Assembly (NCBI RefSeq): GCF_013167455.1
Contig: NZ_CP038328.1
Source: Escherichia coli O157:H7
Lineage (GTDB): Bacteria; Pseudomonadota; Gammaproteobacteria; Enterobacterales; Enterobacteriaceae
Length of the DNA stretch: 64,000 nucleotides
Reading direction: 5' to 3' (one strand)
Shown here: piece after piece, positions 9,201 to 12,200 of the stretch
Layout of the letters: each line of letters begins with the position of its first letter
Numbering within the stretch: the stretch's first letter is position 1
Program-made: the position numbers

Positions 9201-12200
9201 GCGGCCCAGTCAATACCCACCTGAATGATGCTAAGCCCGATAGAAGTAATAACCACACCGGTAACCAGTGGCGGGAATAAAGGCATCAAGCGACCGATAA
9301 GTTGCGCTAATAATGTGGTGATAAAACCCGCGGCGATAGTGGCACCAAATATACCCAGCAGGCCGATATCCGGGTTCATCCCAATGGCTATCATTGGTGT
9401 TACAGCAGCAAAGGTCACCGACATAATCACCGGCAGGCGGATCCCCATAAAGCGGCCGATACCGATACATTGCAATAATGTGACGATCCCGCAGCAAAAG
9501 AGATCCGAGCTAATGAGCATCGCAATAGCTTCTTTTGAGAGGCCCAGTCGGTCACCAATCATAAGAGGAACAGCGACTGCACCTGCGTACATGACAAGGA
9601 CGTGTTGCAGACCGAGTATGATCAGCTTTCCTGGTGATAATATGCGGTCAACCTCATCAGTTGGGCGGTCTTGCCCAGAAGATGAGGGAAGTTGGGAATC
9701 TATGGCGCTCATCAGTGTTTCTCCTTTCGCCCGCCAGAGTAAAAAGCAACCGTTTACGTTAATGAAACTGTCTAAACACATGCTCGTGGAGTGCCAGTTT
9801 TTGCGAGGAAGGGGAGTTAGAGACAGGAATTGCGGAGGCAATCACATAATCGTGCTTAAACTACGAAAATGACAAGAGAACCTGACAATGGAATTATCTG
9901 TAATTTTCTCATATTGATATTTCATTAATCATTCTGGCATGTCGCACTCTCGCATTTAATCGTTTTTATCTGGATAGCGCTATTTGGGGCGGCAATGTTG
10001 AAATAATGAAAGCGGCATAGATTGAGGGGCAATAATTTGAACTCAGTCGCAAAATTATAATTAAAACGGTCATGCTACCTAATATATGCCCGTTTATTGC
10101 ATCGCGAAATTTGAGAAGACATAACTCATTAAATGAAAGGGATGCAAATGAATAAGTTTATCGCTGCTGAAGCCGCGGAATGTATAGGCTGTCATGCTTG
10201 TGAAATTGCCTGTGCGGTGGCACACAATCAAGAAAACTGGCCGCTGAGTCACAGTGACTTTCGACCACGTATCCACGTTGTAGGGAAAGGCCTGGCTGCG
10301 AATCCGGTGGCCTGCCATCACTGCAACAATGCCCCTTGCGTTACGGCTTGTCCGGTTAATGCTCTGACTTTCCAGTCCGATAGCGTACAACTGGACGAGC
10401 AAAAATGTATTGGTTGTAAAAGATGCGCAATCGCTTGCCCCTTTGGCGTCGTTGAGATGGTCGATACGATTGCGCAGAAATGCGACCTTTGTAACCAGCG
10501 CAGTTCCGGCACGCAAGCCTGTATTGAAGTTTGCCCAACACAGGCGTTACGACTGATGGACGATAAAGGGTTACAGCAGATAAAGGTGGCCCGCCAGCGC
10601 AAAACGGCAGCAGGAAAAGCGTCATCAGACGCTCAGCCATCTCGCAGTGCAGCGTTGCTCCCCGTTAACTCGCGTAAAGGCGCAGATAAAATTTCAGCAA
10701 GTGAACGGAAAAACCACTTTGGCGAAATCTATTGCGGGCTGGATCCACAACAAGCGACTTATGAGAGTGACCGCTGTGTTTATTGTGCCGAAAAAGCTAA
10801 CTGCAACTGGCATTGCCCGCTGCATAACGCTATTCCGGATTACATCCGTCTGGTACAGGAGGGAAAGATTATTGAAGCGGCAGAACTTTGCCACCAGACC
10901 AGTTCCTTACCAGAAATCTGCGGCAGGGTATGTCCACAGGACCGTCTTTGTGAAGGCGCATGTACTTTGAAAGATCACTCTGGCGCAGTCTCTATCGGTA
11001 ATCTGGAACGCTACATCACCGATACCGCGCTGGCGATGGGCTGGCGTCCCGATGTCAGCAAAGTTGTTCCCCGTATCGAGAAAGTGGCGGTGATTGGCGC
11101 TGGGCCTGCAGGGTTAGGGTGTGCTGATATTCTGGCGCGCGCAGGAGTTCAGGTCGATGTCTTTGATCGCCATCCAGAAATTGGCGGTATGCTGACTTTT
11201 GGCATTCCTCCTTTCAAACTCGATAAAACGGTATTAAGCCAGCGGCGAGAGATATTCACCGCAATGGGAATCGACTTTCATCTTAACTGTGAAATTGGCC
11301 GCGATATTACCTTTAGCGATTTAACTTCTGAATATGATGCAGTTTTCATCGGCGTGGGGACTTACGGGATGATGCGAGCAGATCTGCCGCATGAAGATGC
11401 GCCCGGTGTCATTCAGGCTCTACCGTTCCTGACTGCCCATACCCGCCAGCTCATGGGATTGCCGGAGTCTGAAGAGTATCCGCTGACGGACGTGGAAGGT
11501 AAGCGAGTCGTGGTATTGGGCGGTGGCGATACGACAATGGATTGTTTGCGGACTTCCATTCGCCTCAATGCTGCCAGCGTGACCTGCGCGTATCGTCGTG
11601 ATGAAGTCAGTATGCCGGGCTCGCGCAAAGAGGTGGTCAATGCGCGCGAGGAAGGTGTCGAGTTTCAATTCAATGTTCAGCCGCAATATATCGCTTGTGA
11701 CGAAGATGGGCGTTTAACTGCGGTGGGCCTGATTCGTACCGCCATGGGTGAGCCGGGGCCGGATGGTCGCCGTCGTCCTCGTCCGGTTGCGGGTTCAGAG
11801 TTTGAATTGCCCGCCGATGTTCTCATTATGGCCTTTGGTTTCCAGGCGCATGCCATGCCGTGGTTGCAGGGCAGCGGAATTAAACTCGATAAATGGGGCC
11901 TGATTCAAACCGGTGACGTCGGGTATTTACCTACCCAGACGCATCTGAAAAAAGTCTTTGCTGGTGGTGATGCAGTTCATGGCGCGGATCTGGTTGTCAC
12001 TGCAATGGCCGCAGGAAGGCAGGCGGCGCGCGATATGTTAACTCTGTTTGATACGAAGGCATCGTGATGAAATCGTTAATTATCGTTAATCCGGCTGACT
12101 GTATTGGCTGCCGTACTTGTGAAGTGGCCTGTGTGGTCGCTCACCCTTCATAACAGGAGTTGAATGCCGATATCTTTTTACCCCGGCTGAAGGTACAGCG

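What the first reader, a model, noticed from the sequence alone, without database searches (positions are those of the whole stretch)
9781..9797. Candidate sigma54 promoter upstream of the urate transporter gene uacT
The gene strand reads TGGCAC-TCCAC-GAGCA: perfect -24 element and correctly spaced GC, but the -12 lacks the usual TT. It lies about 60-70 nt upstream of the uacT start.
Basis: partly seen in the sequence, partly recalled or inferred. Interest (0 to 1): 0.35.

Follow-up and report, generated by a model that had tools for sequence, protein, structure and literature searches.

The report
Conserved atypical sigma-54 promoter of uacT
The motif is very probably the real sigma-54 promoter of the E. 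coli urate transporter gene uacT: it looks too weak to trust on its own, but it is kept in at least five bacterial genera, together with the same upstream control boxes found at the neighbouring uric-acid-degradation operons.

Summary
The uacT strand reads CTGGCAC-TCCAC-GAGCA at window 9797..9781. The GG and GC are correctly spaced, and A rather than T sits at -14. The site is identical in K-12.

Taken alone it is indistinguishable from chance. A matrix built from 135 published ChIP-seq sites scores it 5.41 bits, below every bound site, and it ranks 158th in the window. The published sigma-54 ChIP-seq and genomic SELEX data show no peak there.

Comparative evidence reverses that impression. 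In 18 distinct uacT upstream sequences (E. coli, E. albertii, Citrobacter, Serratia, Kluyvera, Pluralibacter and metagenomic relatives), CTGGCA and GCAT are invariant while the flanks diverge. The -14 base is A in 17, C in 1 and never T.

Two further boxes are conserved at fixed distances. One is a CRP-like TGTGA-N6-nCnCA box about 68 nt upstream of the predicted start. The other is a dyad, T[AC]TCA-N3-TGAGA, about 143 nt upstream. Both recur at the validated sigma-54 promoters of xdhA, ygeW and ygfK, and at the weak ygfT site.

Published transcriptomics already places uacT in the YgeV iModulon.

Verdict: an unannotated, evolutionarily conserved, non-canonical sigma-54 promoter, probably YgeV-activated and CRP-modulated. 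It is a new member of a known kind. No experiment yet shows initiation there.

The parts
9781..9797 (-). Sigma-54 core promoter of uacT, CTGGCACTCCACGAGCA. The -24 element TGGCAC is at 9796-9791 and the -12 GC at 9783-9782. A sits at -14 (9784) and G at -15 (9785).
   Evidence: sequence, PWM 5.41 bits. (CTGGCA and GCAT invariant in 18 distinct orthologous upstream sequences).
9770..9770 (-). Predicted transcription start, placed 12 nt downstream of the C of the GC, plus or minus 2 nt. It would give a leader of about 58 nt. This is an inference and has not been mapped.
   Evidence: Uses the convention of PMC4591121 (start 19 bp downstream of the motif centre). The leader has no significant fold and no Rfam match.
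9831..9846 (-). CRP-like box TGTGATTGCCTCCGCA (8 of 10 matches to TGTGA-N6-TCACA), centred about -68.5 from the predicted start.
   Evidence: The TGTGA and the two C's are invariant, at the same distance plus or minus 1 bp, in all orthologues. A box at the same offset is found at xdhA, ygfK and ygfT and at ygfK in other genera.
9907..9919 (-). Dyad TATCA-ATA-TGAGA, the candidate upstream activator site for YgeV. Its centre lies about -143 from the uacT start and about -199 from the ygfT start.
   Evidence: The exact 13-mer recurs at 34944-34956 (ygeV/ygeW intergenic region). It recurs with 1 mismatch at 40762-40774 (xdhA upstream) and with 2 mismatches at 25276-25288 (ygfK upstream). In total there are 9 hits against 1.97 expected. 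It is conserved at -119 to -130 in most orthologues (-155 and -166 in two) and at ygfK in other genera.
9926..9938 (-). Second conserved upstream block, CCAGAATGATTA (TCA-N3-TGA-like in other genera). It may be a second activator half-site.
   Evidence: Conserved column block in the 10-lineage intergenic alignment. Its function is inferred only.
9721..9726 (-). Shine-Dalgarno sequence AAGGAG of uacT.
   Evidence: conserved in all lineages.
8264..9712 (-). uacT (ygfU) coding sequence, the urate/proton symporter. This is the gene the promoter serves.
   Evidence: RefSeq annotation of identical DNA.
10085..10101 (+). Divergent partner: the ygfT sigma-54 site TATGCCCGTTTATTGCA. It is published ChIP-seq peak OS32 (fold-above-threshold score, FAT, 3). 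It has a canonical -12 and a degenerate -24.
   Evidence: PMC4591121, Table 1. (6.54 bits). (conserved as ATCGCCyGATTATTGCA in other genera).
10036..10051 (+). CRP-like box of the ygfT promoter, TTTGAACTCAGTCGCA, at the same offset (-41 from the 17-mer) as the uacT box.
   Evidence: Conserved as TTTTGCGA-N6-TCAAAAA.
35112..36890 (+). ygeV, the enhancer-binding protein of the cluster (PAS, sigma-54 interaction domain, HTH_8). It is the presumed activator.
   Evidence: Literature.

Best explanation
Window 9797..9781 (minus strand) is the core of a functional, enhancer-dependent sigma-54 promoter that drives uacT. Transcription is predicted to start near 9770.

RNA polymerase carrying sigma-54 recognises the perfect -24 element (CTGGCAC) and the -12 GC. 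The -12 region is deliberately sub-optimal (A at -14, giving AAGCAT or GAGCAT instead of TTGCAT), so closed-complex occupancy is low.

Activation is proposed to come from the cluster's own enhancer-binding protein, YgeV. YgeV would bind the conserved dyad T[AC]TCA-N3-TGAGA about 143 nt upstream, a site shared with the divergent ygfT promoter.

A CRP-type box centred near -68 lies between the enhancer and the promoter. It would provide DNA bending and/or a contact with the RNA polymerase alpha subunit C-terminal domain (alpha-CTD), coupling expression to catabolite status.

What is shown: the sequence, its conservation, the architecture shared with validated sigma-54 promoters, and the published co-expression.

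What is inferred: initiation at this site, which proteins bind the dyad and the TGTGA box, and the direction of the CRP effect.
For: 1. GG-N10-GC with a perfect CTGGCAC is present, and is identical in K-12.

2. There is a phylogenetic footprint. In E. coli, E. albertii, two Citrobacter, Serratia oryzae, Kluyvera and Pluralibacter, only CTGGCA and GCAT plus the TGTGA box are invariant, in an alignment with 47% mean column identity. Position -21 varies only between C and T, the two bases sigma-54 sites favour.

3. A metagenome scan for the composite pattern returned 47 stretches. Fifteen lay directly upstream of uacT orthologues, in gene orientation.

4. In Pluralibacter, uacT sits between arcC and ygfK rather than beside ygfT, yet keeps the motif. 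The motif therefore belongs to uacT.

5. The architecture is shared across the cluster.
- Only 5 of 185 sigma-54-like hits in the window have a CRP-like box at -43 to -38, against about 0.55 expected.
- Four of those five are xdhA, ygfK, ygfT and this site.
- The dyad 13-mer is exact in the ygeV/ygeW region, and near-exact upstream of xdhA and ygfK.
- The ChIP-validated ygfK promoter shows the same three-part layout in four other lineages.

6. uacT and ygfT are in the YgeV iModulon with xdhABC, ygeWXY, hyuA, ygfK, ssnA, ygfM and xdhD. YgeV has the domains of a sigma-54 activator.

7. The sigma-54 ChIP-chip region of Cho et al. is 1625 bp wide here, tied 4th widest of 161. It is centred at 3029164, the midpoint between the ygfT motif and this motif.

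8. Uric acid degradation is repressed by glucose, and a CRP site is reported between ygeV and ygeW. ygfK is on a CRP genomic-SELEX target list.
Against: - PWM score is 5.41 bits, lower than all 135 ChIP-seq-bound sites. A occurs at -14 in 1 of 135 sites and G at -15 in 5 of 135.
- There is no sigma-54 ChIP-seq peak at the expected position (U00096.2 about 3029314), at either high or low stringency. Those cells grew in M9-glycerol, where CRP should be active.
- Genomic SELEX with the RpoN holoenzyme did not list this region.
- No mapped start site or rpoN/ygeV-dependence data for uacT were found in the searchable literature.
- CRP-cAMP has so far been described as an inhibitor of sigma-54 promoters, so a positive role for the TGTGA box is unproven.
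- The identity of the proteins binding the dyad and the box rests on sequence alone.
Confidence: 0.78

Rival explanations
1. The motif is a chance match. uacT is transcribed by sigma-70 polymerase, for example from the TTGTCA-18-GATTAT pair at 9875-9846 or from a CRP-dependent promoter that uses the TGTGA box. The sigma-54-like string has no function.
For: The PWM score is at chance level, with about one hit of this quality per 400 bp. There is no ChIP-seq or genomic-SELEX signal. A sigma-70-like hexamer pair exists upstream.
Against: The ten core bases are invariant across at least five genera while the flanks are scrambled. The sigma-70-like pair is found at the rate expected from shuffles (2 against 1.8), and its -10 is not conserved outside Escherichia. 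With CRP at -41.5 or -61.5 no conserved -10 falls in the right place, and CTGGCA would be left unexplained (my reading of the alignment).
Confidence: 0.07
2. The conserved CTGGCAY-N7-AGCAT block is the operator of some other DNA-binding regulator, such as a urate- or purine-responsive repressor or activator. It only resembles a sigma-54 promoter.
For: The -12 region departs from the sigma-54 consensus in a conserved way (AAGCAT), which could mean that selection is acting for a different protein. There is no sigma-54 occupancy in the published maps.
Against: - The block has no dyad or direct-repeat symmetry typical of operators (sequence inspection).
- The invariant bases coincide exactly with the bases sigma-54 needs (CTGGCA, GC, then A/T), and the variable ones with the positions sigma-54 tolerates.
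- The block sits at the same distance from the CRP-like box and the dyad as the validated sigma-54 cores of ygfK and xdhA do.
- uacT co-varies with sigma-54 operons.
Confidence: 0.08
3. It is a real sigma-54 binding site and promoter, but the upstream boxes are assigned wrongly. The TGTGA-type box could be the YgeV (or another activator's) site. The dyad could belong to a different factor, or a different enhancer-binding protein could activate uacT.
For: No binding data exist for either box. YgeV's recognition sequence is unpublished in the literature I could search. The CRP-like boxes match only 8 of 10 at uacT, ygfT and xdhA. CRP is usually inhibitory at sigma-54 promoters.
Against: - ygfK and ygeW carry 10/10 and 9/10 CRP consensus boxes.
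- ygfK is a CRP genomic-SELEX target.
- A CRP site is reported in the ygeV-ygeW region and the pathway is glucose-repressed.
- The dyad lies at typical enhancer distances (-140 to -200) and is specific to the four regulatory regions of the cluster.
Confidence: 0.2

Closest known systems
[quoted passage not shown] 2015, PMC4591121
   Same: - Same gene cluster and the same iModulon.
- Same GG-N10-GC core.
- A CRP-like box at the same offset (-40/-41 from the 17-mer; -50 at ygeW).
- The same upstream dyad T[AC]TCA-N3-TGA[GT]A.
   Different: Those sites have a canonical TTGC at -12, score 14-16 bits and are bound in ChIP-seq (FAT 3-26). The uacT site has A at -14, scores 5.4 bits and gives no ChIP-seq peak.
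The divergent ygfT sigma-54 site (OS32, PMC4591121)
   Same: It shares the intergenic region, the single dyad and the offset of the CRP-like box. It is also non-canonical yet conserved.
   Different: The defect is complementary: ygfT has a good -12 (TTGCAT) but a degenerate -24 (TATGCC or ATCGCC), whereas uacT has a perfect -24 and a degenerate -12. ygfT gives a weak ChIP-seq peak (FAT 3) and uacT gives none.
CRP-modulated sigma-54 promoters: glnAp2, dctA and Pu (PMC3900584, PMC1865078)
   Same: A CRP-type factor acts on an enhancer-dependent promoter through DNA geometry and/or the alpha-CTD.
   Different: In those cases CRP-cAMP inhibits, often without a strong specific site. Here a positioned, conserved box is present at every promoter of a pathway that is repressed by glucose, which suggests a positive or architectural role. 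From memory only and not checked here: the prpBCDE sigma-54 promoter has been reported to need CRP.
c5038, the alpha-ketoglutarate transporter promoter of uropathogenic E. coli (PMC5318444)
   Same: It is a transporter gene driven by a sigma-54 promoter. Activation comes from a dedicated enhancer-binding protein bound to inverted repeats, with an extra global-regulator box.
   Different: It uses a different activator (KguR), an FNR box rather than a CRP-type box, and a canonical -24/-12. It has been verified experimentally, and this site has not.

Membership tests
Sigma-54 (RpoN)-dependent promoter | GG at -24/-25 and GC at -12/-13, separated by exactly 10 bp | tested here: met
   CTGGCAC-N7-GC at 9797-9782. 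The same spacing is found in all 18 orthologous sequences.
Sigma-54 (RpoN)-dependent promoter | Overall match to the extended consensus YTGGCACG-N4-TTGCW, with a PWM score within the range of bound sites | tested here: not met
   5.41 bits against a minimum of 6.54 and a median of 14.45 for 135 ChIP-seq sites. A at -14 occurs in 1 of 135 sites.
Sigma-54 (RpoN)-dependent promoter | Intergenic location, oriented toward a gene, with the start within about 20-150 nt of the start codon | tested here: met
   The 17-mer starts 85-86 nt upstream of the uacT ATG in E. coli and 75-149 nt upstream in other genera. It is always in gene orientation.
Sigma-54 (RpoN)-dependent promoter | Occupancy by sigma-54 holoenzyme in vivo or in vitro | tested here: inconclusive
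   Published ChIP-seq shows no peak within 100 bp at high or low stringency, and genomic SELEX lists none. An older ChIP-chip region of 1625 bp is centred between this site and the ygfT site.
Sigma-54 (RpoN)-dependent promoter | A cognate enhancer-binding protein and an upstream activator sequence | tested here: met
   YgeV (PAS, Sigma54_activat, HTH_8) is encoded in the cluster. A conserved dyad at about -143 is shared with the validated promoters. Binding itself was not tested.
Sigma-54 (RpoN)-dependent promoter | Evolutionary conservation of the -24 and -12 cores | tested here: met
   CTGGCA and GCAT are invariant in at least five genera plus metagenomic relatives.
Sigma-54 (RpoN)-dependent promoter | Transcription that depends on rpoN and the activator, initiating about 12 nt downstream of the GC | not testable with these tools
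   No start-site or mutant expression data for uacT were retrievable. The only available evidence is co-expression in the YgeV iModulon.
[quoted passage not shown] | Match to TGTGA-N6-TCACA, including the critical G/C pairs | tested here: met
   TGTGATTGCCTCCGCA matches 8 of 10. TGTGA and the two C's of the right half are invariant across genera.
[quoted passage not shown] | CRP-cAMP binding and a cAMP-dependent effect on expression | not testable with these tools
   The support is indirect only: the pathway is glucose-repressed, a CRP site is reported in the ygeV-ygeW region, and ygfK is on a CRP SELEX list. uacT/ygfT is not on that list.

The most novel reading that the evidence does not exclude
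All five sigma-54 promoters of the YgeV uricolysis regulon (xdhA, ygeW, ygfK, ygfT and uacT) carry a helically phased CRP box at about -68, -78 or -98. CRP-cAMP would act there as an obligatory positive architectural co-activator, standing in for IHF and/or recruiting the polymerase through the alpha-CTD.

The conserved crippled core elements (-12 at uacT, -24 at ygfT) would make holoenzyme recruitment conditional on CRP. That would explain both the absence of ChIP signal and the glucose repression. It would be the opposite of the established inhibitory role of CRP at sigma-54 promoters.

The weak -12 at the transporter gene might also permit some activator-independent basal expression, which would be needed to import the inducer.
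Probability: 0.3. Interest if true: 0.65.

Novelty: new member of a known kind. Interest (0 to 1): 0.45.

Why it matters
UacT is the urate importer that feeds the anaerobic uric-acid degradation pathway of gut Enterobacteriaceae. That pathway is now linked to host urate levels and gout.

Placing uacT under a sigma-54/YgeV promoter with the same control boxes as the catabolic operons has three consequences:
- It explains the co-expression of uacT with those operons.
- It gives concrete sequences to mutate or to engineer.
- It supplies a candidate YgeV recognition dyad.

The case is also a methodological warning. A promoter that fails both PWM scoring and ChIP-seq can still be under strong purifying selection. 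So sigma-54 regulons defined by occupancy in non-inducing conditions are incomplete.

Tried and rejected
I did not accept it as decisive because it assumes independent positions and penalises the single A at -14 by 4.8 bits.
- **Sigma-70 scan.** Two hits against 1.8 expected, and they are not conserved. Rejected.
- **RNA element in the leader.** No Rfam match above noise (best E = 0.51). The E. coli leader folds no better than shuffles (z = 0.49). Rejected for E. coli.
- **Literature.**
  - No paper in the library couples ygfU with sigma-54, and a broader search that added uacT and rpoN listed none among its top 25 results.
  - Iwadate & Kato 2019 (PMC6509651) and Reitzer & Schneider 2001 (PMC99035) are not held.
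  - Schaefer 2015 and the 2025 sigma-54 regulon survey do not mention these genes.
  - The Reg-Seq supplement has no uacT entry.
  - The Cappable-seq start-site table is truncated at about 0.3 Mb, so it could not be used.
- **IHF site between enhancer and promoter.** No WATCAANNNNTTR match was seen on inspection. The TATCAA of the dyad is not followed by TTR and is not IHF-like in other genera.
- **More distant uacT relatives.** Hafnia lacks the motif above the 5-bit cut-off. Edwardsiella ictaluri has only unrelated sigma-54-like strings (10.3 and 6.9 bits), not the uacT-type architecture. Aeromonas was retrieved but not scanned. Morganella has a canonical-looking TTGGTCTGTATTTTGCT about 158 nt upstream of its ATG, just after a terminator-like hairpin and without the boxes. 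I left it unresolved.
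Full report
**Where we are.** The window is an O157-type E. coli chromosome segment running from sdhE to the ETT2 island. 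uacT (ygfU, the urate/H+ symporter) is on the minus strand at 8264..9712. The divergent ygfT is at 10148..12067, which leaves a 435-bp intergenic region. The anaerobic purine and uric-acid cluster follows (ghxQ, guaD, xanQ, xdhD, ygfM, ssnA, ygfK ... hyuA, ygeY, dpaL, ygeW, ygeV, xdhCBA). It includes ygeV, whose product has PAS, sigma-54 interaction and HTH_8 domains.

**The observation.** The minus strand of 9797..9781 reads CTGGCAC-TCCAC-GAGCA. GG and GC are 10 bp apart, as sigma-54 requires. The -24 half is a perfect extended consensus. The -12 half reads GAGCA instead of TTGCA. The strict 16-mer is 9781..9796, and base 9797 is the C in front of TGGCAC. The motif ends 68 nt before the ATG. 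With the usual convention the start would be near 9770, giving a leader of about 58 nt. K-12 MG1655 has the identical sequence.

**Is the site convincing on its own? No.**
- TGGCAC-N7-GC occurs 7 times in the window against 2.4 expected.
[quoted passage not shown] 2015 (PMC4591121).
  - The candidate scores 5.41 bits, lower than every one of the 135 bound sites (minimum 6.54, median 14.45).
  - It ranks 158th among 127,968 window positions, or roughly one such hit per 400 bp.
  - The cost comes from A at -14 (1 of 135 sites) and G at -15 (5 of 135).
- The same matrix recovers the known sites of xdhA, ygfK and ygeW as the top three hits in the window.
- Published occupancy data are negative.
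  - The only ChIP-seq peak in this intergenic region is OS32. It has a fold-above-threshold score (FAT) of 3, is centred at 3029005 and is assigned to TATGCCCGTTTATTGCA upstream of ygfT, which is window 10085..10101.
  - No high- or low-stringency peak lies within 100 bp of the uacT motif, expected at about 3029314 in U00096.2.
  - Those cultures grew aerobically in M9-glycerol.
  - Genomic SELEX with RpoN holoenzyme lists ygeV/ygeW but not this region.

**Comparative genomics reverses the picture.**
- A scan of one genome per species with the UacT protein returned orthologous loci.
- In gene orientation, 75-149 nt upstream of the ATG, the following sequences are found:
  - E. albertii and another E. 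coli: CTGGCATTCCACGAGCAT
  - Citrobacter sp. R56: CTGGCATCCCACGAGCAT
  - C. freundii M-21: CTGGCACTGTCTGCGCAT
  - Serratia oryzae: CTGGCATTCCCTAAGCAT
  - Kluyvera: CTGGCATCACCTAAGCAT
  - Pluralibacter gergoviae: CTGGCACCGGATAAGCAT
- The alignment has 47% mean column identity and only 22 invariant columns. Ten are CTGGCA plus GCAT, and ten belong to a second block about 45 bp upstream.
- In Pluralibacter, uacT lies between arcC and ygfK rather than next to ygfT. The motif therefore travels with uacT.
- A metagenome scan for the composite pattern, chosen with a spacing that excludes typical E. coli, gave 47 stretches. Fifteen were directly upstream of uacT orthologues of 81-100% amino-acid identity, and the rest look like the expected random background.
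- Across 18 distinct upstream sequences, the -14 base is A in 17, C in 1 and never the consensus T. Position -21 varies only between C and T, the two bases sigma-54 sites favour.
- The unusual -12 region is thus itself conserved. It is not a decaying remnant.

**Shared architecture.** Two further elements sit at fixed distances from the core.

The first is a CRP-type box, TGTGATTGCCTCCGCA (9846..9831), which matches TGTGA-N6-TCACA at 8 of 10 positions.
- It is centred 41 bp upstream of the 17-mer, or about -68.5 from the predicted start.
- TGTGA and the two critical C's are invariant in all orthologues, at -40 or -41.
- Boxes at exactly this offset also occur at xdhA, at ygfK and at the ygfT site.
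- ygeW has a 9/10 box one helical turn further upstream, and ygfK has an additional perfect box three turns further.
- Of 185 sigma-54-like hits of at least 5 bits in the window, only five have such a box at -43..-38, against about 0.55 expected. Four of the five are these promoters.

The second is a dyad, TATCA-ATA-TGAGA (9919..9907).
- The exact 13-mer recurs in the ygeV/ygeW intergenic region. It recurs with one mismatch upstream of xdhA, and as the palindrome TATCATTATGATA upstream of ygfK.
- In total there are 9 hits with up to 2 mismatches, against 1.97 expected.
- Upstream of uacT orthologues, T[AC]TCA-N3-TGAGA lies at -119 to -130 from the 17-mer in most lineages, and at -155 and -166 in two.

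The ChIP-validated ygfK promoter shows the same three-part layout in four other lineages: a core of 15-16 bits, boxes at -41 and -71, and a dyad at about -160.

An alignment of the complete ygfT-uacT intergenic region from ten lineages shows that essentially only these elements are conserved. The exceptions are a further block (CAGAATGATT), the ygfT core and the ribosome-binding site.

**Expression context.**
- uacT and ygfT are members of the YgeV iModulon together with xdhABC, ygeWXY, hyuA, ygfK, ssnA, ygfM and xdhD.
- The authors of that work note sigma-54 promoters at xdhABC and ygeWXY, and reduced ygfT expression in a ygeV mutant.
- ygfT and ygfK are induced by uric acid.
- Uric-acid degradation is repressed by glucose, and a CRP site is reported between ygeV and ygeW.
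- ygfK is on a CRP genomic-SELEX target list, but ygfT/ygfU is not.
- An older sigma-54 ChIP-chip study called a 1625-bp region here. It is tied fourth widest of 161, and the wider ones include the double promoter regions hycA/hypA. Its centre, 3029164, is the midpoint between the ygfT motif and the uacT motif. This is suggestive but low-resolution evidence for two sites.

**Most likely mechanism.** Sigma-54 holoenzyme binds the perfect -24 element and the GC at -12, forming a weak closed complex. YgeV, bound at the shared dyad about 143 nt upstream of the uacT start and about 199 nt upstream of the ygfT start, remodels that complex by looping. A CRP-type protein at -68 sets the geometry of the loop and/or contacts the alpha subunit C-terminal domain (alpha-CTD) of RNA polymerase.

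The sequence features and their conservation are shown. The protein assignments and the direction of the CRP effect are inferred. The literature describes CRP-cAMP as inhibitory at sigma-54 promoters such as glnAp2, dctA and Pu. A positive role here would therefore be unusual, although it would fit the glucose repression.

From memory of work on -12 region mutants (Gralla laboratory; not checked here), a non-consensus -12 lowers closed-complex stability and can loosen activator dependence. For a transporter that must import the inducer, a leaky weak promoter would make sense. That last point is speculation.

**Rivals.**
- Chance match with sigma-70 transcription. Conservation contradicts this. 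The only sigma-70-like hexamer pair is at shuffle frequency and is not conserved.
- An operator for another regulator. This is unlikely. The invariant bases are exactly those sigma-54 needs, the variable ones are those it tolerates, the block has no symmetry, and it occupies the same place in the architecture as validated cores.
- Mis-assignment of the two upstream boxes remains a real possibility.

**Novelty.** I found no report of a sigma-54 promoter for uacT or ygfU in the searchable literature. The main genome-wide sigma-54 maps do not list one. EcoCyc and RegulonDB could not be consulted. YgeV control of uacT has been suggested from co-expression only. I therefore rate this a new member of a known kind, with two less ordinary aspects. 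One is a conserved non-canonical -12 that escapes both PWM and ChIP detection. The other is a regulon-wide positioned CRP-type box.

**Verdict.** Confidence that this is a functional sigma-54 promoter is about 0.78. Interest is 0.45.

Noticed in passing
window 10085-10101 (+), and orthologous positions in L004, L005, L006 and L018: The ygfT sigma-54 site (published ChIP-seq peak OS32) has a canonical -12 (TTGCAT) but a degenerate -24: TATGCC in Escherichia and ATCGCC in Citrobacter and Serratia. The deviation is conserved across genera. It is the mirror image of the uacT defect.
   Followed up: partly
window 9831-9846, 10036-10051, about 25140-25155 and 25170-25185 (ygfK upstream), about 34786-34801 (ygeW upstream), about 40697-40712 (xdhA upstream): Every sigma-54 promoter of the cluster has a CRP-type box centred near -68, -78 or -98 from the predicted start. 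That is the same helical face in steps of about 10 bp. It suggests regulon-wide coupling of catabolite control to sigma-54 transcription.
   Followed up: partly
window 9907-9919, 25276-25288, 34944-34956, 40762-40774: The dyad T[AC]TCA-N3-TGA[GT]A is shared by the four regulatory regions of the cluster and is conserved in other genera. It is a candidate recognition sequence for YgeV, for which I found no published site.
   Followed up: partly
L004, L006, L096, L105, L112, L125 and L126: the uacT leader between the sigma-54 core and the ribosome-binding site: Non-Escherichia orthologues carry a hairpin of differing sequence just upstream of the Shine-Dalgarno, for example CCGTTGGCCATGAATGGCCAACGG in L112 and GGCTCCTGAGCC in L105. 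E. coli lacks it, and its leader folds no better than shuffles. This could be a leader structure conserved in shape only. I did not test it for covariation.
   Followed up: no
L008 977-993 (Morganella psychrotolerans): A canonical-looking sigma-54 motif, TTGGTCTGTATTTTGCT (13.5 bits), lies about 158 nt upstream of the uacT-like ATG (1135). It directly follows a terminator-like hairpin and lacks the CRP-type box and the dyad.
   Followed up: partly
window 12067-12555: In the matching RefSeq record, ygfS is annotated as a pseudogene with an internal stop in this O157-type background.
   Followed up: no
window 52692-52721: Two overlapping sigma-54-like motifs lie on opposite strands: ATGGCGAAGATGTTGCA (13.4 bits, +) and CGGGCATTAATAATGCA (13.9 bits, -). 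Both are inside a YscQ/HrcQ-family gene of the ETT2 type III secretion island. They may be intragenic sigma-54 binding sites or chance matches.
   Followed up: no
L103, L108, L119 and L120 (E. coli-like metagenome contigs), compared with window 9798-9802: Some E. coli-like sequences have a 1-bp shorter A-run immediately upstream of CTGGCAC (AAAA instead of AAAAA). This moves the CRP-type box from -41 to -40, the spacing seen in all other genera. Their box reads TGTGATTACCTCCGCA.
   Followed up: no
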